NCBI GenBank assembly: GCA_002309855.1
Contig: DBYD01000029.1
Span: 10,521-74,520, forward strand
Length of the DNA: 64,000 nucleotides
DNA from: Bacteroidales bacterium UBA1195
Lineage (GTDB): Bacteria > Bacteroidota > Bacteroidia > Bacteroidales > WCHB1-69
Direction: 5' to 3'
This document shows, piece by piece, positions 15,027-58,977 of the stretch (the stretch's first letter is position 1; each line of letters begins with the position of its first letter). Both the position numbers and the translations under genes were made by a program. The notes below the pieces were generated by a model. The model was given only the letters and a program-made list of their open reading frames with translations, ran no database searches and had not been told where the DNA came from.

Positions 15027-15034
15027 CAAAAAAA

Positions 15035-24765: not shown

Positions 24766-24781
24766 TTTACTGTGCTAGCAC

Positions 24782-33100: not shown

Positions 33101-36100
33101 ACGGTTGCTCCCTTGTCGGCGGTGATGCGGATGGTGCTGGTGGCGCTTGAGCCCGGCACGGAGTCGGCGATGGAGAGTGCGGGGTACTGTCCGGAGCGGA
33201 ACATTAGCGTTACCGCACCTCCGATGCCGCAGTGTGTCATGATGGTGTAGGCTTCGTCAAAGGAGGCGAAGTCGGGGCTGGTGCCGCCGACGGTGTATGT
33301 CCCTTTCATGGGGCTGCCGCAGATGAACTCCTGCATGCGGATGGTGTCGTTGTTGGGGTTGGGGTCTTTGTCCTGGTTGGGCTGGTACACCCATGCGATG
33401 ATGCTTATCTGTTTTCCGCCAGGGGCGTTCACGCTGCCGAGTGTTACGGTGTCGCTGCTGCCGGAGGTGAGCAGGCCGCTCCAGCTCTTCGGGGTCTGTG
33501 CGGTCCCGTTCACGCTCCAACCGATTACTGCTGACTTCAAATCATCGTCGCCGAGGTTGGTGAGGGTGACCTTGACCGGACTACTCTGCCCGCCCACAAT
33601 CTGTGTGCCCGCGAACTCGCCCAACGAGGCGTCCAGTTTGGCCAATTTGCCCGTGTAGGCACCCATTCCTGTGATCTTTTTGCGGAGCGAATCCTCCACA
33701 TCGCGGAGGATGCCCATGTTCGGCACCATGAAAAGCGTATAATCTTTCAGTTGCAGCCCTTTGGTCACATCCACGAATCCCGGGTTCGTGGAGAGACTGT
33801 GAGAATTGTCGTTTGTGGTTGATTGCAGCGTCTTAAGGTCGCTGATGATGGTGGTTCCGATGACGGCGATGTCCTTGCCCTGGTTCCAGTAGTTGTTGTA
33901 GTCTGTCCGGACATTTGGCAGCGCGTCCGCCGCAATGACAAGCGGAAACTGGTTGTTGCCGTCGCAGGCGGCCACCATGTTGCCGTAGGCCTCCACGTCA
34001 GAGGTGGCTCCCGTGATTGAGAGGTCGTGCACCCCCACGGTGTAGTTTGTGGTGTATGCGGCCTTGATGGTGTTGTAGATGCTGTTGTGGATGAACCGCG
34101 CCTTGGTGCCGCCCATCTGCACCACACGGCCGGTGCCCTGGCCGACCCGCCATCCGCCGCTCACCTTTCCAAGGATGACATTGTTGGCGATAAGGGTCTT
34201 CCCTCCGTTGAGGCTGGTGGTGTTTGAAACATTGAACACCACGCCGGTGGGGGCCGCGTCACCCATGAGGCTCATGTTGACGAAGTTGCCGTATACGCTG
34301 TCGCAGGTGGTCTGGTTCAGGGCCACGCCGAACGAGTTCTGGTTTATTTTCTTACGCACAAGGCAGGTGTTGAAGCAGAAGCTGACGCTGTCGGCATATT
34401 CGATGCCGAAAAGGCCGTCGTATGTCTCGACAATCAGGTTGCTGTCCACACGCATGCCGTGGAAGCGGCTGGTGGCGGTTCCGCGCAGACGGTTGCGGCA
34501 ACCTCCGGAGATGGTGTTGCCTATCAGGTGGAAGTTGCGCACAAGCGTGGTGATGGTGTTGTCCCCCTTGCCGATGCAGGAATTTGATCCGGCGGTTGCG
34601 GAGACCGGGGTCAGCAGGTTGCAGCGGTAGAAGGTGACATTTTCGGTCGGGCCTGCGAAGTACACCGCATGTCCGCTCCCGGTGTTGTTAATCGTGATGT
34701 AACTGAATGTCATGTTGCTGGTGCTGTCCAACTGGACCGCTCCGTTGGTTCCGCTGTAGTTGAAGGTGACACTGTCGCGGTTTTTGGCCTTGGAGGTGAT
34801 TGTCAGCCGGTATCCGTTCATGAAGCCGGTGTTGATTCTGATCGGGGTCGAGCCCAAGTTGTAGGTTCCCTTTTCAAAAGTCAGGGTGATGTCCCCGCCC
34901 GCGCCGCAGGCCTCAATGCCCTGGATGGCGTCGGCAAGGCTTTTGTACTGGCTGTTCGGGCCGACATTGTATGTGCCGGAGGAGGCCGAGCTGCAGCCGA
35001 GCGAAATCCGACGCAGCGTGTCGTCATTCACTGCCTTGTCCACCACATTGTTCGGCATCTTTATCCATACGGTCACCGTGTCGTAGGTGTTCATCCGGTG
35101 CATGTATGTGCCGAGCGTTATGGTGTCAATAAAGTCGCAGGGCAGGTTGCCGGTGTATTTTTTCGAGCCCTGGTACACGCCGTTGAGCGACCAGTGCAGT
35201 TCCGCCGACTTCAGGTTGTTCAGACCCTTGTTCTTGAAGCTCACCTGCACGGTCTGCGGGTTGGGAATGGAGACCCGTCCCGGCTTGTCAATTGAATGCA
35301 TTGCGACGGAGTTGCTGTCGAAACCGCCCGGATATTTCACGTAGAATCCGGCGTTGGCCTTGGCGTTGTTGCCGAAGGTGTCGCGTCCGATGATGTAGTA
35401 CTGAACGCTTGTGCCGAAATACTGCTGCGGGATGGTGGCCGTCCACATCGAGTCGCCCGCCGTGGCTTTCATCCTGATGGAGTCATGCTTGCTCTTGCCG
35501 CTGTATAGCGTGACGGTGTGCAGGTATGGAGTGAGGATTGGACCGTTTGTCCGTGTGGCCACCTTTGCGTTGACAACGAAGGGTCCGGTTGTGAACACCG
35601 TGTCGGCGATGTTGGAGGTGAATGCCACCACCGGCGGCTGTATGGCGTGCGCGGCGCAGAGTAGCTGCACATCGTCCACATACCATCCGGCTGCAATGTA
35701 GGAACCCATATAGCTTCCTTTCCTGATTATGAATTTGAAGCGTACTTCGGAGTAGCCAGCGTAGTTGCTCATGTCGAAAATCTCCTCCTTCCACCATCCG
35801 CTGGCAGGCTGGGCTAAGGTGTCGTTGGCCTTCCATTCGGTGTAGGAGCTATGGTCGAAGGCGAGGTTGGCCTTGTAGCCGGTGAACTTGCCCTTGTATG
35901 CATCGTTGGGTATCGGCCTCCATTTGTAGTTGACACCCAATCCCTTCTCCTGATACATGACCTGGCAGATGTCACTGGGCAGCACTTTGCATATATGGCT
36001 GAATTTAAGAATCACATATTCATATTGCTGGCAGTCGAAATAGGGAGTGACCAGTTCCACCGTATCACCGGCGGAATAGGGGACGTAGCCGTGCGCCGCG

Positions 36101-36303
36101 TATGATGCGGAGACAACCAGCCCCTTTTCCGTGCGCCAGCTGGGTGCCATTGTGGAAAAGGCCGGCTGCACCGACCAGCCCTGCGGGGTGTTCTTGCCGA
36201 AGGTCTCGTTGCAGACGTAGGTGCCTTGTGCCTGCGCAGCCATGATGGCGGTTGCGAGCATCATCGGCAAAACGGCTTTTCTGAATATGTCTAAAATGTT
36301 CAT
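30181..36303 (-). CDS. Giant T9SS cargo protein, paralog A (2040 aa from the ATG at 36303). Modules: choice-of-anchor-J/MAM-like N-domain, CARDB-like Ig modules, two beta-helix regions, a second MAM-like domain, type-A CTD.
   Basis: Signal peptide MNILDIFRKAVLPMMLATAIMAAQAQG. Beta-helix rungs of about 22-25 aa. CARDB-like LTNLGDDDLKSAVIGWSVNG. C-terminus GQNIPNPASNMTAIPF...GLYYYRMEYDGRQQVRKMNIVR. The track ORF start at 36330 is a TTG extension. Confidence 0.9.
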   Translation of the reverse strand: MNILDIFRKAVLPMMLATAIMAAQAQGTYVCNETFGKNTPQGWSVQPAFSTMAPSWRTEKGLVVSASYAAHGYVPYSAGDTVELVTPYFDCQQYEYVILKFSHICKVLPSDICQVMYQEKGLGVNYKWRPIPNDAYKGKFTGYKANLAFDHSSYTEWKANDTLAQPASGWWKEEIFDMSNYAGYSEVRFKFIIRKGSYMGSYIAAGWYVDDVQLLCAAHAIQPPVVAFTSNIADTVFTTGPFVVNAKVATRTNGPILTPYLHTVTLYSGKSKHDSIRMKATAGDSMWTATIPQQYFGTSVQYYIIGRDTFGNNAKANAGFYVKYPGGFDSNSVAMHSIDKPGRVSIPNPQTVQVSFKNKGLNNLKSAELHWSLNGVYQGSKKYTGNLPCDFIDTITLGTYMHRMNTYDTVTVWIKMPNNVVDKAVNDDTLRRISLGCSSASSGTYNVGPNSQYKSLADAIQGIEACGAGGDITLTFEKGTYNLGSTPIRINTGFMNGYRLTITSKAKNRDSVTFNYSGTNGAVQLDSTSNMTFSYITINNTGSGHAVYFAGPTENVTFYRCNLLTPVSATAGSNSCIGKGDNTITTLVRNFHLIGNTISGGCRNRLRGTATSRFHGMRVDSNLIVETYDGLFGIEYADSVSFCFNTCLVRKKINQNSFGVALNQTTCDSVYGNFVNMSLMGDAAPTGVVFNVSNTTSLNGGKTLIANNVILGKVSGGWRVGQGTGRVVQMGGTKARFIHNSIYNTIKAAYTTNYTVGVHDLSITGATSDVEAYGNMVAACDGNNQFPLVIAADALPNVRTDYNNYWNQGKDIAVIGTTIISDLKTLQSTTNDNSHSLSTNPGFVDVTKGLQLKDYTLFMVPNMGILRDVEDSLRKKITGMGAYTGKLAKLDASLGEFAGTQIVGGQSSPVKVTLTNLGDDDLKSAVIGWSVNGTAQTPKSWSGLLTSGSSDTVTLGSVNAPGGKQISIIAWVYQPNQDKDPNPNNDTIRMQEFICGSPMKGTYTVGGTSPDFASFDEAYTIMTHCGIGGAVTLMFRSGQYPALSIADSVPGSSATSTIRITADKGATVRFDNGTNGATLKNAMHWIFDGVAFGNTSKAECGVAFEGMVRNILIRNCDIQASITAVKTEAAVRYNNPTGSTLFMQDVRLVCNRIEGGAYNIHMACMAGSTTNMPSASLTIDSNTLKEAAAYGLYSESYAHYRSVRANDITGRKGADEYCGLWFHSYNDIDAIDANRVRAEATGVYGIVLSTYINTSAKGLLSNSEITLTGTKFAYGITLTDPYQEWDIAHNSVLVRCDKGNAYAVRLYNNSGKQPFNLLNNLLVAEGATAYPIYIEKVPMSISSYYVLDYNNYHARNMVGYFGKAIATLADWRSNTGQDAHSVAVQPQFVQQATSLELKDYSAFACNRLNNVTRDILGKTRNTVTTMGCYSGNLKLEADLVAVAFVNPDPTSAVACHGDFTDIEVTISNIGNIAADFAKSPLKIRVTVTGAVSLSKDTTIRQGKLDPAQSGKFRPMRLNTANGGIYKIRVTLSDTADHNPTNDTISMEYNAYRVSLPFDADFSAMPQELVQECISGSLKWRCATTGTPASAFGNGCLTLEGGSQTGARTAAILNSVAVYQAVQPKLTLWYAHHNGKNQGDSLIVKATTDGGATYTVLGRLCAAAATAGWQPYEYQLDRFTSSKCLCIVLEGVAGGAGQRIDRVRISARRDLAASLLLPDIDKLSACSLQNLTLRMVVENKTAAAAAVDDTVMVQVSGAASRNFALPYRTTIPGNGSDTVTVTTALDLSAEGAYSFTGHLATPDDDPTNDTARGSISISQDIALAAVSGIDSITLYSGDDQLQIKATVTNKGNVPVDRVVLRMYANGQALLADTLRTHIKAGDSVTQQLSQPFVVPFATKENPTFSFRLEALLPCDAATGDNSISLTGKVNVPDTTDTTGTDTTGTDTTGIRIARRMDWRLGQNIPNPASNMTAIPFTLPQGGEVTISVLSANGQLINRRRIQAQAGENTVSISTEGWADGLYYYRMEYDGRQQVRKMNIVR
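30461..30514 (-). repeat. 15-bp tandem repeat (about 3.5 copies) encoding the DTT(D/G)T linker immediately before the CTD of paralog A
   Basis: CCGGTGGTGTCGGTT x2, then the degenerate CCGGTTGTGTCCGTT. It translates on the minus strand to PDTTDTTGTDTTGTDTTG. Paralog B has a shorter variant at 36720-36764. Confidence 0.85.
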
Positions 36304-36346
36304 AATGATAATTTTAAAGATTAATCCCAAATTTAAAACGAATTTG

Positions 36347-36439: not shown

Positions 36440-39400
36440 TTACCGTACAATGTTCATTTTCCTGACCTGTTGCCGGCCGTTGTATTCCATGCGGTAGTAG
36501 TATAGGCCGTCGGCCCATCCCTCGGTGCTGATGCTGACGGTGTTCTCGCCAGCCTGCGCCTGGATGCGCCTGCGGTGAACCAGCTGCCCGTTGGCGGAGA
36601 GCACGGATATTGTCACCTCGCCACCCTGCGGTAGCGTGAACGGTATGGCGGTCATGTTGGAGGCGGGGTTGGGTATGTTCTGCCCAAGCCGCCAGTCCAT
36701 ACGTTTTGCAATGCGGATGCCGGTGGTGTCAACATTGTTGGTGTCGGTTCCGGTGGTGTCCGGCACGTTGACCTTTCCGGTGAGGGCTATGCTGTTGTCA
36801 CCGGTGGCGGCGTCGCATGGGAGCAGCGCCTCCAGCCTGAAGCCGAAGGTGGGGTTCTCCTTGGTTGCGGATGGCACCACGAAGGGCTGTGAGAGCTGTT
36901 GTGTCACGGAGTCGCCGGCCTTGATGTGCGTGCGCAGTGTGTCCGCGAGCAGGGCCTGCCCGTTGGCGTACATGCGCAGGACCACCCTGTCCACCGGTAC
37001 GGTGCCTTTGTTTTTGACCGTGGCTTTGATCTGCAGTTGGTCATTACCGCTGTACAGTGTCGAGCTGTCGATGCCGCTGACAGCCGCCAGCGCGATGTTC
37101 TGGTTTATGGTGATGGCGCCGCGTGCGGTGTCGTTGGTGGGGTCGTCGTCGATAGTGTGCAGGACGGCCTCAAACTTGTGGGTCCCCTCTGCGGAGAGGT
37201 CGAGCGAGTCAGTTACAAGCAGGGTGTCGGAGGCGTTGCCCGGCAGGAATCCCTGGCACAGCCGCCTGAACAGCTGGTTCGAGGCGCCGCTTACGTTCAC
37301 GCTGAGATAGCAGCTTACGGTAGCCTCGGAGGGGATGAGGTTTTTGAGAACCACCCTGACCGGGAGGTTCTGCAGGCTGCAGGCTGAGAGCTTGTCCAAA
37401 TCGGGGAGCAGCAGCTGGATGGAGATGTCGTTGCGGCCCGATATCAGGATGCGGTCGATCTGCTGTTCGGCGCCTCCCGCGACGGTCTCCATCACGATGC
37501 AGAGGCATTGTGCGTTGCTGAATTTGTCCAACGGGTATTCGTAGAGCTTCCATCCTGCGGTTGCCGCGGCGGCGCAGAGCCGTCCGAGGACGGTGTAGGT
37601 GGCCCCGCCATCGGTTGTGGCCTTTATGATGAGCGAGTCACCCTGGTTATTGCCGTTGTGGTGCGCGTACCAGAGGCTCAGCTTCGGTTCGGTGGTGTTC
37701 TGTATGTTGATGGAATTGAGGATGATGTTGGTGCGGTCGCCGGTGTGCCCCCTGCCATCAAAGAGCAGGCATCCCTTGCCGAAGGCGGGCTGCAGGGAAC
37801 CGGATGAGGCCACCTTCCAGAGGCTGCCGCCCTTGCGGCACTCCTGCAGCAGCTCCTGCGGCATGGCGGAGAGGTATGTGTCGAAGGGGAGGTACACACG
37901 GTAGGTGTTGTAGTCCATGGAGATGGTGTCGTTGGCCGGGTTGTGGTCTGCGGTGTCGGAGAGTATGACCCTGATGTGTTGGATGGCTGAAATGGTGCTG
38001 ATCCGGAGCAGTCGGAACCTGCCGCTCTGTGCGGGGTCGAGCTTGCCCTGCCGGATGATGGTGTCCTTTAAGATGGAGTTAAGAGGGATGCCGGTGACCT
38101 CAATCCTCACCTTCAGCGGTGACTTGGCGAAATCCGCCGCGATGTTGCCGATGTTGGAGATGGTCACCTCGATGTCGGTGAAGTCACCGTGGCAGGCGAC
38201 GGCTGATGTCGGGTCTGGGTTCACGAAGGCCACTGCTGCGAGGTCGGCCTCCAGCTTAAGGTTCCCGCTGTAGCAGCCCATGGTGGTGACGGTGTTGCGC
38301 GCCTTGCCGAGGATGTCCCTTGTGACGTTGTTGAGGCGGTTGCAGGCGAAGGCACTGTAGTCCTTAAGTTCGAGGCTTGTGGCCTGCTGCGCGAACTGCG
38401 GCTGCACGGCCACGGAGTGCGCGTCCTGCCCAGTGTTGCTCCTCCAGTCCGCCAATGTGGCTATGGCCTTGCCGAAGTATCCCACCATGTTCTGGGCGAA
38501 GTAGTTGTTGTAGTCGAGCACATAGTAGCTGGATATGGACATGGGCACCTTCTCAATGTATATGGGATATGCGGTGGCACCCTCCGCCACCAGCAGGTTG
38601 TTGAGGAGGTTGAAGGGCTGCTTGCCGCTGTTGTTGTAGAGCCGGACGGCGTAGGCGTTGCCCTTGTCACACCTCACGAGGACGCTGTTGTGTGCGATGT
38701 CCCACTCCTGGTATGGGTCGGTGAGTGTGATGCCGTATGCGAACTTGGTGCCGGTGAGGGTTATCTCGGAGTTGGAGAGCAGCCCCTTCGCGCTGGTGTT
38801 TATTGATGTCGAGAGGACGATGCCGTACACCCCTGTCGCCTCGGCGCGGACGCGGTTTGCGTCAAGGGCGTCGATGTCGTTGTAGGAGTGGAACCAGAGG
38901 CCGCAGTACTCGTCGGCGCCCTTGCGCCCGGTCACGTCGTTGGCGCGGACGCTCTTGTAGTGGGCGTAGCTTTCGCTGTAGAGGCCGTATGCGGCGGCCT
39001 CCTTCATTATGTTGCTGTCGATGGTGAGCGATGCGGACGGCATGTTGGTTGTGGAGCCTGCCATGCACGCCATGTGGATGTTGTATGCGCCGCCCTCAAT
39101 CCTGTTGCCGATGAGGCGGACCTCCTGCATGAACAGGGTGCTGCCGGTGGGGTTGTTGTACCTGACTGCGGCTTCTGTCTTGACAGCGGTGTTGGAGGCC
39201 TGTATGTCGCAGTTGCGGATGAGAATGTTGCGGACCATCCCCTCGAAGGCAACGCCGCAATCGGCCTTGGATGTGTTGCCGAAGGCGACCCCGTCGAAGA
39301 TCCAGTGCATGGCGTTCTTGAGTGTCGCTCCGTTGGTGCCGTTGTCGAAACGGACGGTTGCACCCTTGTCGGCGGTGATGCGGATTGTGCTGGCTGCGCT

Positions 39401-42400
39401 TGAACCCGGCACGGAGTCGGCGATGGAGAGGGCGGAATACTGCCCTGCGCGGAAGACGAGCGTGACCGCTCCTCCGATGCCGCAGTGCGTCATGATGGTG
39501 TAGGCTTCGTCAAAGGAGGCGAAGTCGGGGCTGGTTCCGCCGACGGTGTAGGAGCCCTTCATGGGGCTGCCGCAGATGAACTCCTGCATCCGGATGGTGT
39601 CGTTGTTTGGGTTGGGGTCCTTGTCCTGGTTGGGCTGGTACACCCATGCGATGATGCTTATCTGCTTGCCGCCCGGGGCGTTCACGCTGCCGAGTGTGAC
39701 TGTGTCGCTGCTGCCGGAGGTGAGCAGCCCGCTCCAGCTCTTCGGGGTCTGTGCGGTCCCGTTCACGCTCCATCCGATTACTGCTGACTTCAGGTCATCG
39801 TCGCCGAGGTTGGTGAGCGTCACCTTGACGGGGCTGCTCTGCCCGCCCACGAGCTGTGTGCCAGCGAACTCGCCCAACGAGGCGTCCAGTTTGCCCAGCT
39901 TGCCCGCGTAGGCGCCGATAGCGGTAATTTTCTTTCTGGCAGAATCCTCAAAGTCGTTTGTGATTCCGGGATTCGGCACCATGAAAAGGGTGTAGTCCTT
40001 CAACTGCAGCCCCTTGGTCGGGTCAGCAAATCCGGGATCGGCCGAGATGCTGCCTTTGTCATTGATGAGCGGCTGCAGGGCGGCAAGCGAGGTGACTGCG
40101 TTGCCGTTGTAATAGGCTATGGTCTTGCCGCCGTTTGCGAAATAAAAGTTGTTGTGTTCGGAAACAACCTTTCCGGCGGCTGCGGTGGCCGCGGCCACAT
40201 TCAGCGTGTGCTGGTTCTTGTCATCAAAGGCGATGAGCTGGTTGCCCACCATGTGTATGTCGCTGGTGTCATTGATGCCCATCACATAAACCGTCTTGTT
40301 GTTGTTCCCGCTGGTAGGTGCGGCGGAGGTGCGCCCGTTGTAGACGCTGTTGAAGAAGACATCGGCCTGCGCCTTTGAGACCGTGAGCAGGTTGCTTGAC
40401 CCGGCGTTGTTACGCACGTATGAGCTGTTGCTGTAGCCGAGGATGACGTTGTTGGCGATGAGTATGCGCCCCGACTTGCCGCTCCCAGTCGGTTTGCCGG
40501 ATGTGCCGGAGACGGAAATTCCCGGCCCGCCGTAGGTGGTGCCCTGGTTCAGGAATGAGATGAAGTTGCCGCATACGCTGTCGCCCGTGATGACGGAGAG
40601 CTGGATGCCGGGCGACCAGTAGGAGCTGGTCTTGTCCTTCACCCAGACGCGGTTGCGGTTGCAGGTGACACTGTCCGCGCGATAGACCATGATACCTGCG
40701 GCGGTGTTGTCGGTGATGGTGTTGTCGTTGAAGACCAGCCGGTGCAGCCGGTGTGTTGTGGCCATGGTGATGACATTGCGGCAGCCGTTGTCGATGTGGT
40801 TGCCGATGAAGCGCAGGTCGCGCACGAAGGCGTTAAGGCCGTTGTTGCCGTTGTCGTTCGCCTGTGCGGTGGTGGCGTTCAGGGTGGTGGATCCGATGGT
40901 CATCTGGTATCCGCTGGTGGCGAAGCCGGTGCCGTTGGTCCGTCTCAGCACGCAGTGGTAGAAGGTCACATTGTCGATCGGGCCGTTAAGGCAGACGGTG
41001 TTGCTGTTTGATGTGCTGCTGTTATGTATGGTCAGGTAACTGAATGTGACATTCTCGGTGTTGTTTAGGGTGATCATCCCTGGGGCGGTAATGGAGGCCT
41101 TGTAGCTGATTGTCACGCTGTCGCGGTTCTTGGATTTGGAGGTGAAGGTCAGGTGGTGGCCGTTCATGAAGGCGGTGTTAAGCCGCAGTACCGAATCGAT
41201 TATATATGTGCCGTTCTCAAATTCTATGGTGATGTCGCCGCCCGCGCCGCAGGCGTAGATTCCATCCATCGCCTCCTTCAGCGTCTTGTACTGGCTGTTC
41301 GGGCCGACGGCGAAGGTGCCGGATGAGGCTTTGGCGCAGCCGAGCGAAATCCGCTGCAGCGTATCGTCATTGACCGCCTTGTCCGCCACATTGTTTGGCA
41401 TCTTTATCCATACGGTCACCGTGTCGTAGTCGTTCACGCGGTGGATATAGCTTCCGAGCGTTATTGTGTCGATGAAGTCGCAGGGCAGGTTGCCGGTATA
41501 TTTTTTCGAGCCCTGGTACACGCCGTTGAGCGACCAGTGCAGCTCCGCCGATTTCAAATTGTTCAGCCCCTTGTTCTTGAAGCTCACCTGCACGCTCTGC
41601 GGGTTGGTGATCGAGACCCGCCCCGGCTTGTCAATCGAATACATGGCGACGGAGTTGCTGTCGAAGCCGCCAGGGTATTTCACGTAGAATCCGGCGTTGG
41701 CCTTGGCATTGTTGCCGAAGGTGTCGCGTCCGATGATATAGTACTGGACGCTTGTGCCGAAATACTGCTGCGGGATGGTGGCCGTCCACATCGAGTCGCC
41801 CGCCGTGGCCTTCATCTTGATTGAGTCATGCTTGCTTTTGCCGCTGTAAAGCGTGACTGTGTGCAGGTATGGCGTAAGGATGTGCCCGTTGGTTCTTGTG
41901 GCAACCTTTGCGTTTACAACGATGGGTCCCGTAGTGAACATCGTGTCGGCGATGTTGGAGGTGAATGCCACCACCGGCGGCTGTATGGCGTGCGCGGCGC
42001 AGAGCAGCTGCACATCGTCCACGTACCATCCGGCTGCGATGAATGAGCCCGGGTAGCTTCCCTTCCTGATCACGAATTTGAAGCGCACTTCCGAGTAGCC
42101 CGCATAGTTGCTCATGTCGAAAATCTCCTCCTTCCACCATCCGCTGGCAGGCTGTGCGAAGGTGTCGTTAGCCTTCCATTCAGTGTAGGAGCCATGGTCG
42201 AAGGCGAGGTTGGCCTTGTAGCCGGTGAACTTGCCCTTGTATGCATCGTTGGGTATCGGCCTCCATTTGTAGTTGACACCCAATCCCTTCTCCTGATACA
42301 TGATCTGGCAGATGTCGCTGGGAAGCACTTTGCATATATGGCTGAATTTAAGAATCACATATTCATATTGCTGGCAGTCGAAGTAGGGAGTTATGAGTTC

Positions 42401-42646
42401 CGCCGTGTCGCCGCTTGCGTATGGGACGTAGCCGTGCGCCGCGTATGATGCGGAGACCACCAGCCCCTTTTCAGTGCGCCAAGTGGGAGCCTGGGCGGAA
42501 TAGGCCGGCTGCACCGACCAGCCCTGCGGGGTGTTCTTGCCGAAGGTCTCGTTGCAGACGTAGGTGCCCTGTGCCTGCGCAGTCATTATGGCTGTGGTGA
42601 GCATCATCGGCAAAACGGCTTTTCTGAATATGTCTAAAATGTTCAT
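36440..42646 (-). CDS. Giant T9SS cargo protein, paralog B (2068 aa from the ATG at 42646), a tandem duplicate of A with a different first beta-helix cassette
   Basis: It has the same signal peptide and module order as A, and C-terminus ...GLYYYRMEYNGRQQVRKMNIVR. The track ORF extension to 42763 runs through the promoter and is rejected. Confidence 0.9.
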   Translation of the reverse strand: MNILDIFRKAVLPMMLTTAIMTAQAQGTYVCNETFGKNTPQGWSVQPAYSAQAPTWRTEKGLVVSASYAAHGYVPYASGDTAELITPYFDCQQYEYVILKFSHICKVLPSDICQIMYQEKGLGVNYKWRPIPNDAYKGKFTGYKANLAFDHGSYTEWKANDTFAQPASGWWKEEIFDMSNYAGYSEVRFKFVIRKGSYPGSFIAAGWYVDDVQLLCAAHAIQPPVVAFTSNIADTMFTTGPIVVNAKVATRTNGHILTPYLHTVTLYSGKSKHDSIKMKATAGDSMWTATIPQQYFGTSVQYYIIGRDTFGNNAKANAGFYVKYPGGFDSNSVAMYSIDKPGRVSITNPQSVQVSFKNKGLNNLKSAELHWSLNGVYQGSKKYTGNLPCDFIDTITLGSYIHRVNDYDTVTVWIKMPNNVADKAVNDDTLQRISLGCAKASSGTFAVGPNSQYKTLKEAMDGIYACGAGGDITIEFENGTYIIDSVLRLNTAFMNGHHLTFTSKSKNRDSVTISYKASITAPGMITLNNTENVTFSYLTIHNSSTSNSNTVCLNGPIDNVTFYHCVLRRTNGTGFATSGYQMTIGSTTLNATTAQANDNGNNGLNAFVRDLRFIGNHIDNGCRNVITMATTHRLHRLVFNDNTITDNTAAGIMVYRADSVTCNRNRVWVKDKTSSYWSPGIQLSVITGDSVCGNFISFLNQGTTYGGPGISVSGTSGKPTGSGKSGRILIANNVILGYSNSSYVRNNAGSSNLLTVSKAQADVFFNSVYNGRTSAAPTSGNNNKTVYVMGINDTSDIHMVGNQLIAFDDKNQHTLNVAAATAAAGKVVSEHNNFYFANGGKTIAYYNGNAVTSLAALQPLINDKGSISADPGFADPTKGLQLKDYTLFMVPNPGITNDFEDSARKKITAIGAYAGKLGKLDASLGEFAGTQLVGGQSSPVKVTLTNLGDDDLKSAVIGWSVNGTAQTPKSWSGLLTSGSSDTVTLGSVNAPGGKQISIIAWVYQPNQDKDPNPNNDTIRMQEFICGSPMKGSYTVGGTSPDFASFDEAYTIMTHCGIGGAVTLVFRAGQYSALSIADSVPGSSAASTIRITADKGATVRFDNGTNGATLKNAMHWIFDGVAFGNTSKADCGVAFEGMVRNILIRNCDIQASNTAVKTEAAVRYNNPTGSTLFMQEVRLIGNRIEGGAYNIHMACMAGSTTNMPSASLTIDSNIMKEAAAYGLYSESYAHYKSVRANDVTGRKGADEYCGLWFHSYNDIDALDANRVRAEATGVYGIVLSTSINTSAKGLLSNSEITLTGTKFAYGITLTDPYQEWDIAHNSVLVRCDKGNAYAVRLYNNSGKQPFNLLNNLLVAEGATAYPIYIEKVPMSISSYYVLDYNNYFAQNMVGYFGKAIATLADWRSNTGQDAHSVAVQPQFAQQATSLELKDYSAFACNRLNNVTRDILGKARNTVTTMGCYSGNLKLEADLAAVAFVNPDPTSAVACHGDFTDIEVTISNIGNIAADFAKSPLKVRIEVTGIPLNSILKDTIIRQGKLDPAQSGRFRLLRISTISAIQHIRVILSDTADHNPANDTISMDYNTYRVYLPFDTYLSAMPQELLQECRKGGSLWKVASSGSLQPAFGKGCLLFDGRGHTGDRTNIILNSINIQNTTEPKLSLWYAHHNGNNQGDSLIIKATTDGGATYTVLGRLCAAAATAGWKLYEYPLDKFSNAQCLCIVMETVAGGAEQQIDRILISGRNDISIQLLLPDLDKLSACSLQNLPVRVVLKNLIPSEATVSCYLSVNVSGASNQLFRRLCQGFLPGNASDTLLVTDSLDLSAEGTHKFEAVLHTIDDDPTNDTARGAITINQNIALAAVSGIDSSTLYSGNDQLQIKATVKNKGTVPVDRVVLRMYANGQALLADTLRTHIKAGDSVTQQLSQPFVVPSATKENPTFGFRLEALLPCDAATGDNSIALTGKVNVPDTTGTDTNNVDTTGIRIAKRMDWRLGQNIPNPASNMTAIPFTLPQGGEVTISVLSANGQLVHRRRIQAQAGENTVSISTEGWADGLYYYRMEYNGRQQVRKMNIVR

Positions 42647-42689
42647 AATGATAATTTTAAATATTAATCCCAAATTTAAAACGAATTTG

Positions 42690-42697
42690 CAAATATA
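42690..42697 (-). promoter_or_regulatory. Candidate -7 promoter box (TATATTTG on the minus strand) of paralog B
   Basis: A duplicate of the paralog A promoter context. Confidence 0.5.
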
Positions 42698-42815
42698 CGA
42701 AAAAAAAAGACTGGATGAAAACTCCGCCTTTTTTATATCTTTTTCGCTGACATTTTGGTACAATAAAAGCTTTTATGGCACCGTTTTTGGCAGGTGCATC
42801 TGAAAAACTGTTACG

Positions 42816-43287: not shown

Positions 43288-43317
43288 TGTAGAGACGCAA
43301 AATTTTGCGTCTCTACA
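43288..43317. repeat. Perfect 30-nt REP-like palindrome TGTAGAGACGCAAAA|TTTTGCGTCTCTACA, probably also a bidirectional terminator
   Basis: Read directly from the sequence. It lies between the convergent DUF2147 and LRR genes and overlaps the LRR stop codon (43313-43315). Confidence 0.85.
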
Positions 43318-45367: not shown

Positions 45368-48300
45368 TTACCGGACAATATTCATTTTGCGCGTGATGCG
45401 TTGTCCGCGGTATTCCATGGTGTAATAATATACGCCTGCGGCCCATCCGGAGGCATCCAGTCCGATGCGGTTCTCACCGGCCTCAACCTGGATTGTACGG
45501 CGGTGGATCACCTGTCCGTTGGCCGTCATGACTGTCAGTGTGGCCTCACCGGCCTGCGGCAGGCTGAACGGGATGGCTGTCACCTCCGTGGCCGGGTTCG
45601 GGATGTTCTGTCCGAGGCTCCAGTCAAGACGCTCCGCATCGCGGATGCCGACGCTGTCGCGGTAGCAGCTGAACTGCTTGGCGAGGGTGTCGTTGCTTTG
45701 GATGGTGTCGCCTGCAAAGGCCTCGACGTATGCCTTCAAGGTGTATTTGCCGGTGTAGTCCGGAACCTTGTAGTTCATGGTGAACTGGTGGTTCTTGGTC
45801 TCGTTGACGGCCATGTGGCTGATGTTCTCGCTGATGCTCTCCACCACCTGACCGCTGTTGTTCACAACATCCACATGTATTATGATGTTTTCAGCCTCCA
45901 TGTTGCCGATGTTGGCCACACGCACGGTGGGCGAGAGCTTGGTCTTGCCAAGAGCCTTTTCGGTTGTGGAGATTTCCAGCACCTGGATGTCGATGGAGTC
46001 CGGAATGTTGACCTGTCCCACAATGCTGACCATATCGTTGCTGTTGTCGCCGTCGCATTCCAGATCGCTCTTCAGCTCGAAGAAGTAGTATGGCTGGTCC
46101 TTGCTTACGGCGGGGACTGTAAAGCATTTGCTCATTGTATGGCGAACGGTGTCACCGGCATTGAGGCGTTTGCGGATTGTGTCGGTGACCACCTCGTTGC
46201 CGTCAATGCTCAAACGCAGCAGAACCATCTCCACCGGGATGTTGCCGTTGTTTACGGCCAACGCGCTCACGCGGACGGTGTCGCCGGTCATCTTGAACAT
46301 CTGGCCGTCAAGGCCGAAGACGGTGTCAAGCGCGATATCCTGCATGACAATCAGGCTGGAGTCGCGGATGGTGTCATTGGCGGTGTTGTCGTCAATGGCC
46401 TGCATGCATGCCTCGAAATAGTAGGCCCCGTTTGCGGAGAGGTCGAGCTGTCCGGTGATGAGCAGCGTGTCGCTCTCAAATCCGCCGAGTGTCTTGTTGT
46501 AAACATAGGTGAACTGCTGGTTGCTGATTCCTGTTACACTTACCTGTATTGTGTCATCAGAAACCGATACGGAGGTGCGGTTCAGGTTCTCGACAATGGC
46601 CTTCAGGGGCTGTCCCTGCAGGTGGCAGGCGGAGAGCTGGTCGGTCTCGGGCAGGAGCAGACGCAGCGCAATGTCCTTGTCGGCAGTGATGCGGATGCGG
46701 TCGATGTACTGGTTGCACCCGCCGAAGCTCATGCCCTGGAATGCTATGCAGATGCAGTTGTCGTTGGCGAACTTGCTAAGGTCAAACTCATATTTTTTCC
46801 AGTATACTCCGGTGTCGGAGGCTCCAATCTTGCCAAGTTCGGTGAAGGTCGCACCCTCATCGGTTGTAACCTGGATGCTGAGGAAGTCGCGGACCGCTTC
46901 GTCGGTGTGGGCGTACCAGAAGGTCAGTTTCGGATTGGAGGTCTGGTAGATGTTGACGGAGTTGAATACGGCGTCAGCCACGCTACCGGGCCTGCCCATG
47001 CCGTTGAACACCAGGTAGCCGGTGCCGAATACGGGGGCGATAACGGTGTCTTTCGGCTGCACGCTCCATTCGGTGGAGCCGGACTGTGTGATGCTGACAA
47101 ATTCGGTCGGGGCGGTGGAGAAGTTCACATCGTATGGGAGGTTCACATGGCTCACGTTGTAATCCATGAGAAGTGTGTCGTTCTCCGCATGGTGGTCGGC
47201 GGTGTCTTTGAGCAGAATCTGCAGATGGTAGATGCCGCTTGCCATGGTGGGGATTTTGCCGAGTTTGATTGTGTCGGTCAGTGCGGAGGCCAGTTGGCCG
47301 GTGGTGAGCACGGTGTCCATGCGGAAGTTTCCTGCGCCGGTTACAATCAGGGTGACGGTAAGCGGCGACTGGCTGAAGTCGGCGGTGACCCGTCCGCGGT
47401 TCTGTATGCTGACAGCCACATCGGCGAAGTCGCCGTAGCATTTTATCTCATCGGCAACCATCGGCTGGGTGAACTTCTTGGCGGAGAGGTCAAGGTCGTC
47501 GGTCATTTCAAGGCTGTAGCAGCCGACGGAGGCGACTGGGCCGCGCGGTGTGTTGAGGATGTCAAAAGCCGCCTCGGCCATGCGTGGGCAGGAGAAAGCG
47601 CTGTAGTCTGTCAGCTCAAGGCTTTGGGTGATGTCGATGAAGCTGGGCCTGCTGTTATAGGAGCCGGAATCCTGCGTTGTGGCCGACTGCCAGCCGGCAA
47701 GGCTGTTGATTGCCGAACCGGCGTATCCTACGTTGGTTGCGGTGTCAACCGTGTTGCATCCGTAGTAGAGGTTGTAGTCGAAAATCATGTAGCTCGGTTT
47801 CACGTAGGTGGCGCTTGAGACATATACAGGATAGGCTGTCGTGGATTTGGCCATCAGCAGGTTGTTGCGGAGGCTGATCTTGTAGGAGGTGCTGGTGTTG
47901 TAGAGATAGGCTCCATAGGCTACACTGCCGGAGGATTCCACCCGGATGCTGTTGTTGTAGATGTTCCAGCTCTGGTAGGGGTAGTAGCAATAGATGCCGT
48001 AGGCCGCGCTGCTGTTGGAGACCATTATCTCGTTGTTTGTGATGTTGCCCTGCTTTCCGCCGTAGCTGCCGTAGTTGGCATAGTAGTACATGTAGATGCC
48101 GTAGCCGGAGGCGGCGTTGACATGGATGCGGTTGGCGTCAAGTGTGTCGATGTTGTTGTAATAATAGAGGTACATGCCGTAGAAGGTGCCGCTCCCTGCG
48201 CGGTTGGTGATGCTGTTGTGCGAAATGCTGGTGTAGTGGCTGTAATAGTAGCTGTAGATTCCGTACTGGTATGCATCGGTCATGGTGTTGCCGGTTATGG

Positions 48301-51300
48301 TGACGGAGGCCAGCGGCATGTTGGCGGTGTTTCCGGCCATGTAGTACATGTGGATGTTGGCGACACCGCCCCTGATGTTGTTATTGACGAACCGCACATT
48401 GACAGGATGGTTGCCGCTTCCGCTCGTGCTGTGGAAATAGACGGCCATCGAATTGGAGGTGGCGGTGGTGGAGGCGCTTATGTTGCAGCTGTGGAAAAGG
48501 ATGTCGGTGTTGGAGGATTCCAGCAGCACCCCATAGAGTCCGTTGGAGGTGTTGCCGAAGTTCAGTCCCCTGAACACCCAGTGCGCGGCGTTCTGCAGCG
48601 CGATGCCAGCTTCGAGGCTGCCACCGTCGAAGGTGACCTTGGCGTTGCTGTCGGCAATGACTGTGATGCGTGCGCTGTCGCTTGCGCCGGGAATCTGGCC
48701 TGCTATCTTGAGCGGACCGTAGCTGCCTGCACGCATGGCGAGGGTGACGGGGCCGGAAATGCCGCAGGAGTGCAGCACATAGATGGCCTCCTCGAAATCG
48801 TTGAAATCCGGTTTGTTGCCGCCGATGGTGTATGTGCCGTTAAGTTTTCCGGCGCAGATGTATTCGTACATGGAAATGGTGTCGTTCTGCGGCACCATGT
48901 CGCTGGTCTGGTTGGGGCTTGTGCTCCATGCCGTGATGCGGATCATGCTGCCGATGGCTGCTGTGACACTGCCCAGCTGTATGGACTGTGTGGCTCCTGT
49001 CACCAGATTTCCGCTCCATTTCACAGGAGTCTGCGCCACGCCGTTCACGGTCCATTCAATGACGGCCGATGTCAGGTTTTTCAGGCCGCAGTTCATCAGG
49101 GTGGCATATACGGGACTGTTCTTGGCACCGATTATGTCGGTTCCGGCAAAGTCGGTCAGGCTGGCATCCAGATCCTTCAGGATGGCGGTGTAGGCGCCCA
49201 TGGAGGTGATGCTGTTACGGAGCGAATCGTTGAAGTCGTTGCTGACGCCGGGGTTCGGCATCAGGAAGCGGCCGTAGTTTTTCAGTTCAAGACCTGAAGC
49301 CAGGTTGATAAAGGCCGGGTCGATGGAGACGCTATGCTTGTCCCCGCCGCCTGCGCTTTGCAGGCCGGCAACGGTATAGGCGGGATTGTTGTTGTACATG
49401 GCCACACAACCGCCGCCGTTCCAATAATCGTTGTAGTCGGTGAACGCCGCTCCGGCTGCCAGCGCGTCCACGCCGAGCGGGAACTGGTTGACGGAGTCAA
49501 TGCCTGCAACGATGTTGCCGACCGCACGGATGGATGAATCACCGAGCGATAGTATCTTGACGCCTGCGGTATGCGGTGATGAGCTGTATGCGGTGTTGTT
49601 GTTGAATATGCTGTTGCATACAAAGTCTATTTTGCCGGACAGGCGCACCACGCGGCCCTCTCCGGTGCCCAAACGCCAGCCACCGCCCACATGGGCGATG
49701 ATCACGTTATTGGCCACCAGGATTTTTCCGCCTTTCAGGTTGGTTCCGGAAATGTTGAACACATTGCCGGTGGCGCCTCCGGAGGCTGTGGTGGTGCCTG
49801 TGTTCATGTCGATGAAGTTGCCGTAAATGCTGTCGCAGGTGATATTGTTCAGATGCACACCTGCGGAATTCTGGTTGTGCGCGTTGCGGGAGGTGCCGGT
49901 GTTGTGGTTAAAGATGACGCTGTCAATGTAGTTGATGCGCAGGATGCCGTCGTGCGCTCCGAGGATGGCGGTGTGTTCGATCCGCAGGCCGGAGAGCCGG
50001 TTGGTGGCTGTGCCCAGGATGATGTTCCGGCAGCCGCCCCGGATGGTGTCGTCGATGAAGGTGATGTTTCTGACCTTAAAGGAAAGGGAGGCATTGTCGC
50101 TGGCCGATGTGGCGGTGCCCGGTCCGATTGTGGAGGCACTGCCGGCAGTGGCTGCGGCCGGACTCTCGATGTTGCAGTGGAGGAAGGCGATGTTCTCTGT
50201 CGGTCCGTTGAAGCAGATGGTGTGGCATCCGCTTGTGGCGGTGCTGAGGATGGTGACGTGGCTGAAGGTGACATTGTTCATGTTGTTCAACTGTACCGCA
50301 CCGATGGAACCTGCGTAGCCGAAAATCACGCTGTCGCGGTTCTGGGCGATGGAGGTGACGGTGAGGGTGCCGCCATGCATGAAGTCGGTGTTCCAGTTGA
50401 TGCCTCTTGAGAGGGCATAGGTGCCGCTCTCGAAAGCAAGCGTGATGTCGTTGCCGCCGCCGCATTTGCGGATGATGTTGAAGAGGGTGTCAAGGTCGGC
50501 GTAGGTGTAGTCGGCCTTGCTGGAGTTGCCGATCACAAACCGGCCTGTGACGGCTGAGCTGCAAACATACTGGCTGGCGGTCACGGTGTCGTTTTTCGGA
50601 TTGCCGTCGCCTTTCAGCACAAGGATGGATTCAAACCGGACGTTTCCGCCAGGAATGGCGAAAGTGCCAAGCGGCACGGTGTCCGACATGTTGGTCTTCA
50701 ATGCATTCTTAGGCCGGTAGCTCACATTCGGCTGCGCCGTCCCGTTGATGGAAAAGAGCAGTGTGGCCGAATCGACAGGTTGCGGCCCGACATTTTTGAT
50801 GATGACCGAAATCGGATGTTTGCCGGTTGAGGAGAGGCCGTTCAGCCCGACAAATCCGGTCAGTGCGGCATCCATCGGGTCGCGTGTGGCTTTGATGACG
50901 ATGGTCAGCGTGTCGTTCTTCGCATTGGAGTCCAGCTGGCCGTTCGGGTCGGAGACCACAATTTCGAAAAGGTTGTCCCCCTTGACCAGGGCGACTTGCC
51001 CCAGAGTGACGGTGTCAGCATTCCCTTTGGCCAGTTTGCCCTTCCATGCGAATGGGGTTCCGGCCTTCTGGTTGAGGCTGTATAGTATCTTTGCGGAGGT
51101 GACTGTGGAGTCTCCCGCATTCTTTATGGTGACGGTCAGCGGATAGGGGTTGCCGATTATGGCGGAGGCGTCCGGTGAGAGGATGCTCTGGACGGCCATG
51201 TCATACGGATAGCTGTGGATGATTCCGGCGTAGGCGCCGATTGCGGTGTTGGCGACACGTGCGTTCCCATCAATGTCCTCGCTGTTGCCCGGGTTGGGGA

Positions 51301-53343: not shown

Positions 53344-53443
53344 GTTGCAAAAATAACAACATTTTGCATACCATCCGCCTTTTTTTGCAAAAAAAATGGG
53401 CGGGTAATCCCGCCCATTGGCATACATCAATTGTACAATTAAT

Positions 53444-58823: not shown

Positions 58824-58977
58824 CAAAAAAAATTAAATGCTTTTTCCTTTGGTTCAGAAATACAGGACATTTTTTTTTACCCACATTCCGCAATCCGTAT
58901 TGCAAAATGTTGTATTTTTGCAAATCCGTTTTTACGGAAACGTTCATTCATTTTTTCACAACCCTAAAATAAAAAAA

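What the first reader, a model, noticed from the sequence alone, without database searches (positions are those of the whole stretch)
40020..41335. The first beta-helix cassette of paralog B reappears in paralog D rather than in its tandem twin A
The B segment TFSYLTIHNSSTSNSNTVCLNGPIDNVTFYHC...LRFIGNHIDNGCRNVITMATTHRLHRLVFNDNTITDNTAAGIMVYRADSVTCNRNRVWVKDKTSSYWSPGIQLSVITGDSVCGNFISFLNQGTTYGGPGISVSG...RILIANNVILGY has a clear homolog in D at about nt 57,350-58,400. There D reads TFSHLNIHNSSTSNGHTICINGPMEDVTFYRC...LRFIGNNIDNGCRNVIPMATTHRMQGLVFNDNTIFDNTAAGIMIYRADSVTCNRNHVMVKDKTSSTWSPGIQLSAITGDSVYGNFVSFMNQGATYGGAGINVSG...RILIANNVILSY.

A carries an unrelated cassette at the equivalent position. In D the roughly 100 aa that precede this cassette (58,380-58,690) instead resemble the N-terminus of C (52,260-52,570). 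D's first helix therefore looks chimeric. Cassettes seem to be exchanged between the A/B and C/D/E subfamilies.
Basis: seen in the sequence. Interest (0 to 1): 0.7.

Follow-up and report, generated by a model that had tools for sequence, protein, structure and literature searches.

The report
Mosaic beta-helix surface-protein paralogs
Five giant secreted surface-protein genes of an uncultured rumen Bacteroidales bacterium are patchworks, and one of them (B) carries a 1.1 kb beta-helix core that came long ago from the lineage of another (D); this is a real but ordinary kind of gene shuffling in bacterial surface-protein families.

Summary
B (36440-42763, minus strand) and D (53444-58811) share a beta-helix core: 255/369 aa identical (69%) with no gaps. 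B's tandem twin A is only 34% identical there, although A and B are 91-100% identical in most windows elsewhere (the exceptions are the core's flanks and a second divergent island).

A maximum chi-square test puts the D-like tract of B at window ~40018-41120 (0 of 100 permutations reached the observed value). Trees for cap, core and tail conflict, each with 100% bootstrap support.

The interpretation needs correcting in three ways.
- **B is the chimera, not D.** D's N-terminal cap groups with the caps of other beta-type cassettes. The cap-1 plus beta-core combination occurs in six other cassettes outside B.
- **A's cassette is not unrelated.** It is a divergent homolog (E 2e-41) that is coherent over its whole length.
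- **The exchange is old.** B-D core dS is 0.72, against 0.14-0.33 for the A-B flanks. The same junction is present in at least four independent assemblies.

The A/B pair appears to be repeatedly homogenised outside the heterologous core, which makes the core stand out as an island.

The proteins are T9SS cargo built from ~450-aa right-handed beta-helix cassettes and Ig-like spacers. The family has about 1,580 cluster representatives. This is an ordinary mechanism in an uncharacterised family, of moderate to low interest.

The parts
36440..42763 (-). Paralog B (2107 aa ORF; the likely true start is MNILDIF at ~42646). T9SS cargo made of an N-terminal ~440-aa domain, H1 cassette, Ig-like spacer, H2 cassette, further domains and a Por_Secre_tail CTD.
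41123..41344 (-). B cap-2 (aa 474-547), A-like: 68% aa to A and 36-39% to cap-1 types.
40016..41122 (-). B beta-type helix core (aa 548-916), the D-like tract. Breakpoints are estimated at 41117-41128 and 40016-40020.
   Evidence: The AF2 model is a beta-helix.
39842..40015 (-). B tail/linker (aa 917-974), A-like (83% aa). It is low-confidence and unstructured in the model.
30181..36330 (-). Paralog A (2049 aa), tandem twin of B.
33760..34779 (-). A alpha-type helix core (aa 518-857). It is 34% identical to the B core and closest to C's second cassette (47%) and L5_4 (44%).
53444..58811 (-). Paralog D. It is split into two ORFs by a +1 frameshift; read through, it gives 1788 aa.
58479..58706 (-). 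D cap-1 (aa 36-111). It is 67-72% identical to C's first cap and 79-83% to the caps of other beta cassettes.
57369..58478 (-). D beta-type helix core (aa 112-481), the homolog of the B core.
56641..56646 (-). G6 run (C6 on the + strand) that causes D's frameshift. It is G5, and D is intact, in contigs of runs X4 and X5.
58160..58660 (-). Patch of D's cassette that is only 80-89% identical to MAG contig L002, which is otherwise 99-100% identical over most of its 4.9 kb (its first ~250 nt are 88-93%). This is a strain-level segmental replacement with an unsampled donor.
45368..52663 (-). Paralog C (2431 aa). It has a gamma cassette (51179-52591), two Ig-like spacers and a second H1 cassette Cb (49127-50572), followed by a D-like remainder.
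60167..64000 (-). Paralog E, cut by the window end. Its ortholog L006 (98.5% nt over the last 908 nt) carries gamma-H2-beta-H2 cassettes upstream.
37094..38143 (-). Second A/B divergence island (B aa 1541-1890; its counterpart in A is 30841-31890). It is 63% aa identical, and no donor is present in the window.
58837..60027 (+). PDDEXK_2 nuclease/transposase-family gene between D and E. It is included as context only; no link to the mosaic has been shown.

Best explanation
A to E are paralogous giant T9SS-secreted surface proteins of an uncultured rumen Bacteroidales bacterium. They are built from ~450-500-aa right-handed beta-helix cassettes, each with a cap, a core and a tail, separated by Ig-like (CARDB-type) spacers. 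Cassette cores fall into deep types: alpha in A, beta in B, D and E-internal, gamma in C and E. C's second cassette (Cb) is an alpha-related H1 cassette.

B is a recombinant. An A-like gene had the ~1.1 kb core of its first cassette replaced by a beta core from the D/E lineage, through homologous recombination or gene conversion. The crossovers sit at the two structurally neutral, sequence-conserved edges of the helix: the NRDSVT motif after the cap, and the end of the folded helix before GLxLxDY.

The event is old, about as old as the split between the beta cassettes of D and E. It is fixed in related lineages. Since then the tandem pair A/B has been repeatedly homogenised by gene conversion wherever the two still align. 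The non-homologous core and a second patch are left as islands of divergence.

- **Shown:** homology, breakpoints, tree conflict, relative ages, conservation of the junction, and the fold class.
- **Inferred:** the direction (B as recipient), the recombination mechanism, and the biological role. That role would be diversifying ligand-binding or exposed surfaces of adhesin-like or glycan-binding proteins.
For: **Core identity.** B-D is 69% with no gaps; B-A is 34%.

**Breakpoints.** Maximum chi-square places them at 41117-41128 and 40016-40020. Inside, 309 of 395 informative sites are D-like; outside, 52 of 306 are. None of 100 permutations reached the observed value.

**Trees.** Bootstrap trees are incongruent at 100%.

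**A is coherent, B is not.** A's cap, core and tail are each closest to Cb/L5_4. B matches that lineage only in cap and tail.

**Cap-1 goes with beta cores.** This holds in six other cassettes.

**Relative ages (dS).** B-D core 0.72; A-B flanks 0.14-0.33; A-B cap and tail 0.86-1.02.

**Descent, not convergence.** Third-codon-position identity for B-D is 60-77% across most of the core.

**The junction is conserved.** It is present in L003, L010, P0009/L014 and in contigs of four runs.

**Concerted evolution.** The N-terminal domain is 85-98% nt identical between A and B of the window, but 75-87% between B and its ortholog in MAG J6T56. A and B of L014 are 100% identical over ~3.3 kb.

**Microhomology at the 5' junction.** A 15-18 nt exact match is shared by cassette types at the NRDSV motif.

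**Fold.** The AF2 model has pTM 0.76. All top Foldseek PDB hits are right-handed beta-helix proteins, with E from 1.7e-5 to about 1e-3. pLDDT falls below 50 from cassette residue 438, which is at the 3' breakpoint.

**T9SS CTD.** Present.

**Family size.** 1,580 representatives, mostly 2,000-7,800 aa with 2-15 cassettes.
Against: - No donor closer than ~69% was found for B's core, in the window or among 5.8 billion clustered proteins. The event cannot be tied to a specific donor.
- The breakpoints are graded rather than sharp: A-B identity declines over ~300 nt on each side.
- The direction rests on short cap and tail alignments. The tail grouping of A/B with Cb has only 74% support.
- Much of the comparative material is short MAG contigs, which can themselves be strain or paralog chimeras. 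The 100% A=B stretch in L014 could be an assembly collapse.
- The longest exact B-D match today is 26 nt, so present-day exchange between B and D is unlikely.
- The function is untested. TM-scores to solved beta-helices are low (0.2-0.43) and mean pLDDT is 69.
Confidence: 0.78

Rival explanations
1. There was a recent or ongoing cassette exchange. D, or a current paralog, donates its helix to B, or the reverse, as part of an active variation system.
For: - Conserved cap and tail flanks could serve as recombination anchors.
- Strain-level ~500-nt replacement patches exist inside D's cassette, in backgrounds that are otherwise 99-100% (L002) or 92-98% (L001) identical.
- A PDDEXK_2 nuclease-family gene lies inside the array.
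Against: - B-D core dS is 0.72, several-fold above the A-B flanks.
- The same B junction occurs in lineages 83-100% identical to the window.
- The longest exact B-D match is 26 nt.
- No silent cassettes are present, because every copy is a full gene.
- A candidate B-like tract in the D ortholog L001 turned out to be a generally conserved stretch in which the window's D is the outlier.
Confidence: 0.08
2. No exchange took place. A and B are ancient paralogs whose first-cassette cores simply diverged, or B's core converged on D's. Concerted evolution of the rest then created the appearance of a swapped cassette.
For: - Concerted evolution of the A/B flanks is supported.
- The A-B cap and tail are themselves old, with dS 0.86-1.02.
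Against: - Divergence in place cannot make B's core 69% identical, without gaps, to D's while its cap and tail remain of the A type.
- The core tree places B inside the beta clade at 100%, and the cap and tail trees place it with A at 100%.
- Synonymous-site similarity (dS 0.72 against about 1.1 for A-B) argues for descent rather than convergence.
Confidence: 0.07
3. A is the recombinant. The ancestral A/B gene carried the beta core, and A later acquired an alpha core.
For: An unrooted analysis cannot formally orient the event. Beta cores are the commonest type in the sampled loci.
Against: - A's cap, core and tail are all closest to the same lineage (Cb, L5_4) at similar distances.
- Cap-2 is never found with a beta core outside B orthologs.
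- In distant relatives (L012, L013) the A/B-type N-terminal domain is followed by a non-beta cassette.
Confidence: 0.07

Closest known systems
Domain rearrangement and allelic exchange among Porphyromonas gingivalis T9SS cargo (Kgp, RgpA, HagA adhesin domains); Dashper et al. 2017, PMC5266723
   Same: Both involve Bacteroidota T9SS-secreted surface proteins in paralog families. In both, modules are shared between paralogs by recombination, which gives mosaics that do not follow the genome phylogeny.
   Different: The exchanged module here is a ~370-aa beta-helix core, not a cleaved adhesin domain. Per that paper, the P. gingivalis variants are mosaics seen between strains. The B/D event here is old (dS 0.72). 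The organism is a rumen commensal known only from metagenomes.
Concerted evolution of tandem gene duplicates with islands of divergence (general population-genetic phenomenon; my own knowledge)
   Same: Within-genome A-B identity exceeds ortholog identity in the flanks. Identity declines in a gradient towards a heterologous core that cannot be converted.
   Different: The island here is not merely diverged sequence. It is a segment of a different cassette lineage.
Segmental gene-conversion antigenic variation systems (Neisseria pilE/pilS, Anaplasma msp2, Borrelia vlsE, Treponema tprK; my own knowledge)
   Same: A variable central segment lies between conserved flanks in a surface protein, and related cassettes sit nearby.
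   Different: There is no expression site with silent donor cassettes, because all five copies are complete genes with a leader and a CTD. There is no evidence of high-frequency switching. The exchange predates lineage splits.
Right-handed parallel beta-helix carbohydrate-active and adhesin folds (pectin methylesterase, chondroitinase B/PL6, AlgE4, phage tailspikes)
   Same: The predicted fold class of the cassette matches. All top Foldseek hits belong to it, with probability near 1.0. More distant family members hit Pfam Beta_helix and NosD.
   Different: Sequence identity is 8-13% and TM-scores are 0.2-0.43. The H1 cassette has no Pfam hit and there is no PDB sequence hit. Catalytic residues were not assessed.

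Membership tests
T9SS type A cargo protein | C-terminal Por_Secre_tail / TIGR04183 sorting domain | tested here: met
   For B and C, PF18962 scores 37.5-37.9 bits against a cutoff of 27, and TIGR04183 scores 32.6-35.6 against a cutoff of 23. A, D and E end in the same LGQNIPNPA...MNI[VT]R tail.
T9SS type A cargo protein | N-terminal Sec signal peptide and T9SS machinery in the genome | not tested
   Hydrophobic leaders ending in AQAQ/AWAQ can be read in the sequence. No signal-peptide predictor was run, and the machinery genes are not in the window.
Right-handed parallel beta-helix repeat protein (Pfam Beta_helix PF13229 / PbH1) | Significant match to the Pfam model | tested here: not met
   The H1 cassettes of B, C and D have no hit. 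The stretch of B containing its H2 cassette scores 18.3 bits against a cutoff of 25.9. Distant family members P0014 and P0016 do pass.
Right-handed parallel beta-helix repeat protein (Pfam Beta_helix PF13229 / PbH1) | Beta-helix fold | tested here: met
   The AF2 model of the B cassette has pLDDT 69.4 and pTM 0.76, with a regular strand ladder. The top 21 Foldseek PDB hits (E <= 1e-3) are all beta-helix proteins. The model is of moderate confidence.
Recombinant (mosaic) paralog | Statistically supported breakpoints and conflicting phylogenies on either side | tested here: met
   Maximum chi2 is 258.8 against at most 22.5 in 100 permutations. The conflicting splits have 100% bootstrap support.
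Concerted evolution of tandem duplicates | Paralogs within a genome are more alike than orthologs between genomes | tested here: met
   The N-terminal domain is 85-98% identical between A and B of the window, against 75-87% between the window's B and J6T56's B. A and B of L014 are 100% identical over 3.3 kb, although that could be an assembly collapse.
Programmed segmental gene-conversion variation system | Silent, promoterless partial donor cassettes feeding one expression locus | tested here: not met
   All cassette carriers are full-length genes with a leader and a CTD. No partial cassettes were found in the window.
Programmed segmental gene-conversion variation system | Frequent switching visible as within-population variation of the cassette at one locus | tested here: inconclusive
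   B's core type is constant across assemblies. D's cassette shows ~500-nt divergent patches between strains. Only contigs were available, not reads.
Homopolymer phase variation (for D) | Length-variable homopolymer in the ORF that switches the frame | tested here: inconclusive
   The tract is G6 (frame broken) in the window and in runs X1 and X2, and G5 (intact) in X4 and X5. The tract is short, and heterogeneity within a sample could not be assessed from contigs.
Invertible-promoter control (common for Bacteroidales surface proteins) | Inverted repeats flanking a promoter upstream of the genes | tested here: not met
   Only short palindromes were found upstream of B, C and D.

The most novel reading that the evidence does not exclude
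The array could be a standing cassette-shuffling system. Conserved cap and tail sequences would act as portable recombination anchors that let beta-helix cores move between giant T9SS surface proteins. The PDDEXK_2 (Rpn-like) nuclease gene embedded between D and E might assist this. The result would be population-level diversity of binding or antigenic surfaces in a gut commensal. The ~500-nt strain-specific patches in D, and the A=B identity in L014, would be recent products of such a system.
Probability: 0.07. Interest if true: 0.7.

Novelty: new member of a known kind. Interest (0 to 1): 0.33.

Why it matters
The result shows how an uncharacterised and widespread family diversifies. The family consists of very large T9SS-secreted beta-helix proteins in rumen and gut Bacteroidales.

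Whole helix cores are swapped at structural boundaries, while the rest of the gene is kept uniform by gene conversion. This has three practical consequences:
- Short-read MAGs break or mis-join at these loci, so annotation and binning need care.
- Whole-gene trees are meaningless for this family.
- The variable cores are the obvious candidates for specificity determinants, so they mark the place to look for ligand or phage-receptor specificity.

The mechanism itself is textbook.

Tried and rejected
**Donor for B's core.** A word-indexed search of 5.8 billion proteins returned only B orthologs (88-100%), D-type cassettes (58-66%) and A-type orthologs (40-47%). No closer donor was found.

**Donor for the divergent D patch in L002.** Nothing scored above 84%.

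**Donor for the second A/B island.** A and B are each other's best match there.

**Recent B-to-D conversion in the D ortholog L001.** The stretch at alignment columns 721-815 is 94% identical to B. It proved to be a stretch conserved in most beta cassettes, with the window's D as the outlier, so the result is inconclusive.

**Other searches.**
- A PDB sequence search with the cassette profile gave only chance hits.
- Pfam and NCBIfam gave no hit on the H1 cassette, the N-terminal domain or the second island.
- A search for invertible-promoter inverted repeats found none.
- The genome-contig scan found only two species representatives, and the metagenome scan only four loci. Broad comparative sampling of the A/B backbone was therefore not possible.

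**Cap tree caveat.** The first cap tree suggested that gamma caps nest among beta caps at 100% support. That split was driven by the signal-peptide junction columns and disappeared when they were removed.
Full report
**Anatomy**

The right-hand half of the window carries five large minus-strand ORFs:
- A, 30181-36330, 2049 aa.
- B, 36440-42763, 2107 aa.
- C, 45368-52663, 2431 aa.
- D, 53444-58811, split into two ORFs.
- E, 60167 to beyond 64000, cut by the window end.

D is broken by one extra G in a G6 run at 56641-56646. Removing one G gives a 1788-aa protein colinear with C. B and C give significant matches to the T9SS C-terminal sorting domain (PF18962, TIGR04183) and to CARDB, and A, D and E end in the same CTD sequence.

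Unrelated genes lie between the paralogs:
- DUF2147, 42816-43271.
- A BspA-type LRR protein with a T9SS tail, 43313-45295.
- An Amidase_2 gene, 52774-53430.
- A PDDEXK_2 nuclease/transposase-family gene, 58837-60027.

An HMM built from the first-helix regions finds repeated cassettes of ~450-500 aa. There are high-scoring 'H1' cassettes (one in A, B and D, two in C). There are also distantly related 'H2' cassettes, one in each of the five.

**Check of the observation**

The quoted peptides sit at the stated coordinates.
- B core against D core is 255/369 identical (69%) with no gaps.
- B core against A core is 34% with 47 gap positions, but still E 2e-41. A's cassette is therefore a divergent homolog, not an unrelated sequence.
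- In sliding windows, B-D is 65-88% aa and 70-86% nt across the core.
- Third-codon-position identity for B-D is 60-77% across most of the core. A-B is 24-43% aa in the core.
- Outside the cassette, A and B are 91-100% identical in most windows. The exceptions are the core's flanks and a second island at B aa ~1541-1890.
- D's first ~75-100 aa are 67-72% identical to C's first cassette.

The mosaic is not an artefact of the window's assembly. Single Logan contigs from four public runs span both junctions of B: X1 and X2 with 1684 nt and 0 differences, X4 and X5 at about 97%. Independent assemblies show the same cap-2 to beta-core junction:
- L003, from MAG GCA_017650125.
- L010, a syntenic metagenome contig.
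- P0009/L014, a 65.7 kb scaffold.

**Source organism**

Related sequences come only from rumen and gut metagenomes.
- L002 ('MAG: Bacteroidales bacterium', GCA_017618975) is 97% identical over 4.9 kb.
- The end of L006 ('uncultured Bacteroidetes bacterium RUG11939') is 98.5% identical to window 63093-64000.
- Bovine gut metagenome runs of 2011 and 2015 from one sample (X1, X2) hold 99% of the sampled words.

The window is therefore from an uncultured rumen Bacteroidales bacterium.

**Breakpoints and tree conflict**

I ran a codon-aligned triplet test on A, B and D. The best two-breakpoint partition falls at B aa 546-549 (window 41117-41128) and aa 915-916 (window 40016-40020).
- Inside the partition, 309 of 395 informative sites are D-like. 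Outside it, 52 of 306 are.
- Chi2 is 258.8, and the maximum in 100 permutations was 22.5.

The D-like tract is therefore ~40018-41120.

I aligned 16 H1 cassettes from the window and related loci and split them into cap, core and tail. Neighbour-joining trees with 300 bootstraps gave:
- Cap: (A, A-ortholog, B, B-ortholog), 100%.
- Core: (B, D, D-ortholog, L4_1, L6_3, L5_1), 100%, and (Ca, L6_1), 100%.
- Tail: (A, A-ortholog, B), 100%.

**Which gene is the chimera**

Cores fall into three deep types:
- alpha: A and its orthologs, with Cb and L5_4 as relatives.
- beta: B, D, E's internal cassette L6_3, L4_1, L5_1, L15_P1 and L15_D.
- gamma: Ca, and E's first cassette L6_1.

Caps fall into three types:
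- cap-1, found with all beta cores outside B and with the gamma cores.
- cap-2, found only in A, B and their orthologs.
- an intermediate type in Cb and L5_4.

With the signal-peptide junction columns removed, D's cap groups with other beta-cassette caps (D1, L2, L4_1, L6_3; 100%). It is 79-83% identical to them, against 68-69% to the gamma caps. D is therefore coherent along its length. Its likeness to C's N-terminus reflects a cap type that beta and gamma cassettes share.

A is coherent too. Its cap, core and tail are each nearest to Cb/L5_4, at 43-58%. B alone combines a cap and tail of that lineage with a beta core. B is the recombinant.

There is a weaker hint that C's cap has been replaced. 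Ca and L6_1 have cores 80% identical but caps only 65-69% identical, and Ca's cap is 75-79% identical to the beta cap of L4_1. Bootstrap support for this is low.

**Age of the event**

Nei-Gojobori dS values are:

| Comparison | dS |
|---|---|
| A-B flanks | 0.14-0.33 |
| A-B cap | 0.86 |
| A-B tail | 1.02 |
| A-B core | 1.09 |
| B-D core | 0.72 (dN 0.21) |
| C-D remainder | 0.49-0.64 |

The three beta cores of this genome lineage (B, D and E-internal) are about equidistant, at 67-71% aa. The present D is therefore not a recent donor. B acquired its core at about the time D's and E's beta cassettes separated.

No closer donor exists among 5.8 billion clustered proteins. The longest exact B-D match today is 26 nt.

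**Why the core looks like an island**

In the N-terminal domain, A and B of the window are 85-98% nt identical. B is only 75-87% identical to its ortholog in MAG J6T56, which is equidistant from A and B. The beta core of the same ortholog pair is 91-95% identical.

In scaffold L014, A and B are 100% identical over ~3.3 kb downstream of the cassette. That stretch includes the second island, which is A-type there. This could be a very recent conversion or an assembly collapse.

A-B identity decays gradually over ~300 nt on each side of the core. Together these results fit repeated gene conversion between the tandem copies, with conversion tracts ending where homology runs out.

**Ongoing, smaller-scale exchange**

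L002 is 99-100% identical to the window from ~57370 to ~62000, except for a ~500-nt patch at 58160-58660 that is 80-89% identical. In that patch the window is 94.6% identical to L001. L002's version has no match above 84%.

L001 conversely carries a divergent mid-core patch. Segmental replacement inside the cassette therefore continues among strains, from unsampled donors. Chimeric MAG contigs cannot be excluded.

**Structure and family**

An AF2 model of B's cassette, built from a nine-sequence alignment, has pLDDT 69.4 and pTM 0.76 and shows a long ladder of short strands.
- The 21 Foldseek PDB hits with E <= 1e-3 are all right-handed parallel beta-helix proteins. They include pectin methylesterases, chondroitinase B/PL6, AlgE4, GH87 and a phage tailspike. 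TM-scores are low, at 0.2-0.43.
- The 5' breakpoint (cassette residues 73-76) lies just after the capping helix and first rungs, at the conserved NRDSVT motif. A 15-18-nt exact match is shared between cassette types at that motif.
- The 3' breakpoint (residues 442-443) coincides with the end of the confidently folded region, where pLDDT falls below 50 from residue 438. The swap therefore respects structural boundaries.

A profile search of 1.84 billion representatives finds 1,580 proteins at E <= 1e-3 and 276 at E <= 1e-30. Most of the best 150 are 2,000-7,800 aa long with 2-15 cassettes. The two relatives scanned against Pfam (P0014 and P0016) both hit Beta_helix. P0016 also hits NosD and Por_Secre_tail, and another relative (P0052) is named 'right-handed parallel beta-helix repeat-containing protein' in NCBI.

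Fragments of B's beta core and of C's gamma cassette occur at low depth in rumen metatranscriptome assemblies, so the genes are probably transcribed.

**Mechanism and function**

Shown:
- The homology and the breakpoints.
- The conflicting trees and the relative ages.
- Conservation of the junction.
- The fold class.
- The T9SS tail.

Inferred:
- Homologous recombination or gene conversion at conserved cassette edges produced B.
- Gene conversion homogenises A and B outside the core.
- The cores are the specificity-determining surfaces of adhesin-like or glycan-binding proteins, kept diverse by selection.

On the last point, dN/dS is 0.29 for the B-D core, against 0.07-0.11 for the long conserved A-B flanks (the N-terminal domain and the CARDB-plus-H2 stretch).

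**Comparison with known systems**

The closest described parallel is domain rearrangement among P. gingivalis T9SS cargo proteins (PMC5266723).

The locus does not meet the defining features of programmed gene-conversion variation systems. It has no silent cassettes and shows no frequent switching at the B locus. It has no invertible-promoter repeats.

**Verdict**

The general reading, that modules have crossed between subfamilies, is right. The specific reading, that D is chimeric and the exchange is current, is not supported. The phenomenon is a well-known kind, seen here in an uncharacterised family.

Noticed in passing
window 56641-56646: D is frameshifted by a G6 run. Contigs of the likely source sample (runs X1, X2) also have G6, while contigs from two other studies (X4, X5) lack one G and encode an intact D. 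This could be a pseudogene allele or a phase-variable tract.
   Followed up: partly
window 58837-60027 (+): A PDDEXK_2 (PD-(D/E)XK nuclease family transposase, E 2.7e-41) gene sits between D and E and is conserved at that position in L002. No link to the mosaicism has been shown.
   Followed up: partly
window 43288-43317: A perfect 15+15 nt palindrome, TGTAGAGACGCAAAA/TTTTGCGTCTCTACA, overlaps the stop codon of the BspA-LRR gene. The same ~31-mer appears in many rumen metatranscriptome contigs with unrelated flanks, so it is a dispersed repeat or a terminator-like element.
   Followed up: no
window 37094-38143 (B) and 30841-31890 (A): This is a second island of A/B divergence (63% aa, dS 0.67) with no donor in the window. 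In scaffold L014 the B copy carries the A-type version.
   Followed up: partly
window 60167-64000 and L006 6839-14331: E is cut by the window end. Its ortholog in RUG11939 (98.5% nt over the overlap) has gamma-H2-beta-H2 cassettes upstream, so E is probably about 3,500 aa and itself carries a beta and a gamma cassette.
   Followed up: partly
window 51372-52600 vs L006 6923-8151: C's N-terminal gamma cassette is 81% nt (80% aa core) identical to E's first cassette, while the rest of C is D-like. C is therefore a mosaic as well.
   Followed up: partly
L014 ~11950-15250 and the matching part of the next gene: A and B of this 65.7 kb ENA scaffold are 100% identical over ~3.3 kb. This is either a very recent gene conversion or a repeat collapsed or duplicated by the assembler.
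   Followed up: no
L014 7425-8012, L011 128-793: In other strains a nitroreductase gene, not the BspA-LRR gene, precedes the B-type gene. L011 also has a different signal peptide on an otherwise 99% B-like N-terminal domain. The array's gene content varies between strains.
   Followed up: no
L004 ~1135-1137; L009: L004's beta cassette has an in-frame stop. L009 (bovine gut/rumen metagenome, run SRR094424) joins pieces of A/B, B and the LRR gene out of order, so it is probably a chimeric contig. Short-read assemblies are unreliable at this locus.
   Followed up: no
window 22321-26056: The window holds further T9SS cargo genes: an IgGFc_binding + PKD + CHU_C protein (22321-24765) and a second BspA-LRR + Por_Secre_tail protein (24782-26056). 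The region is a surface-protein island.
   Followed up: no
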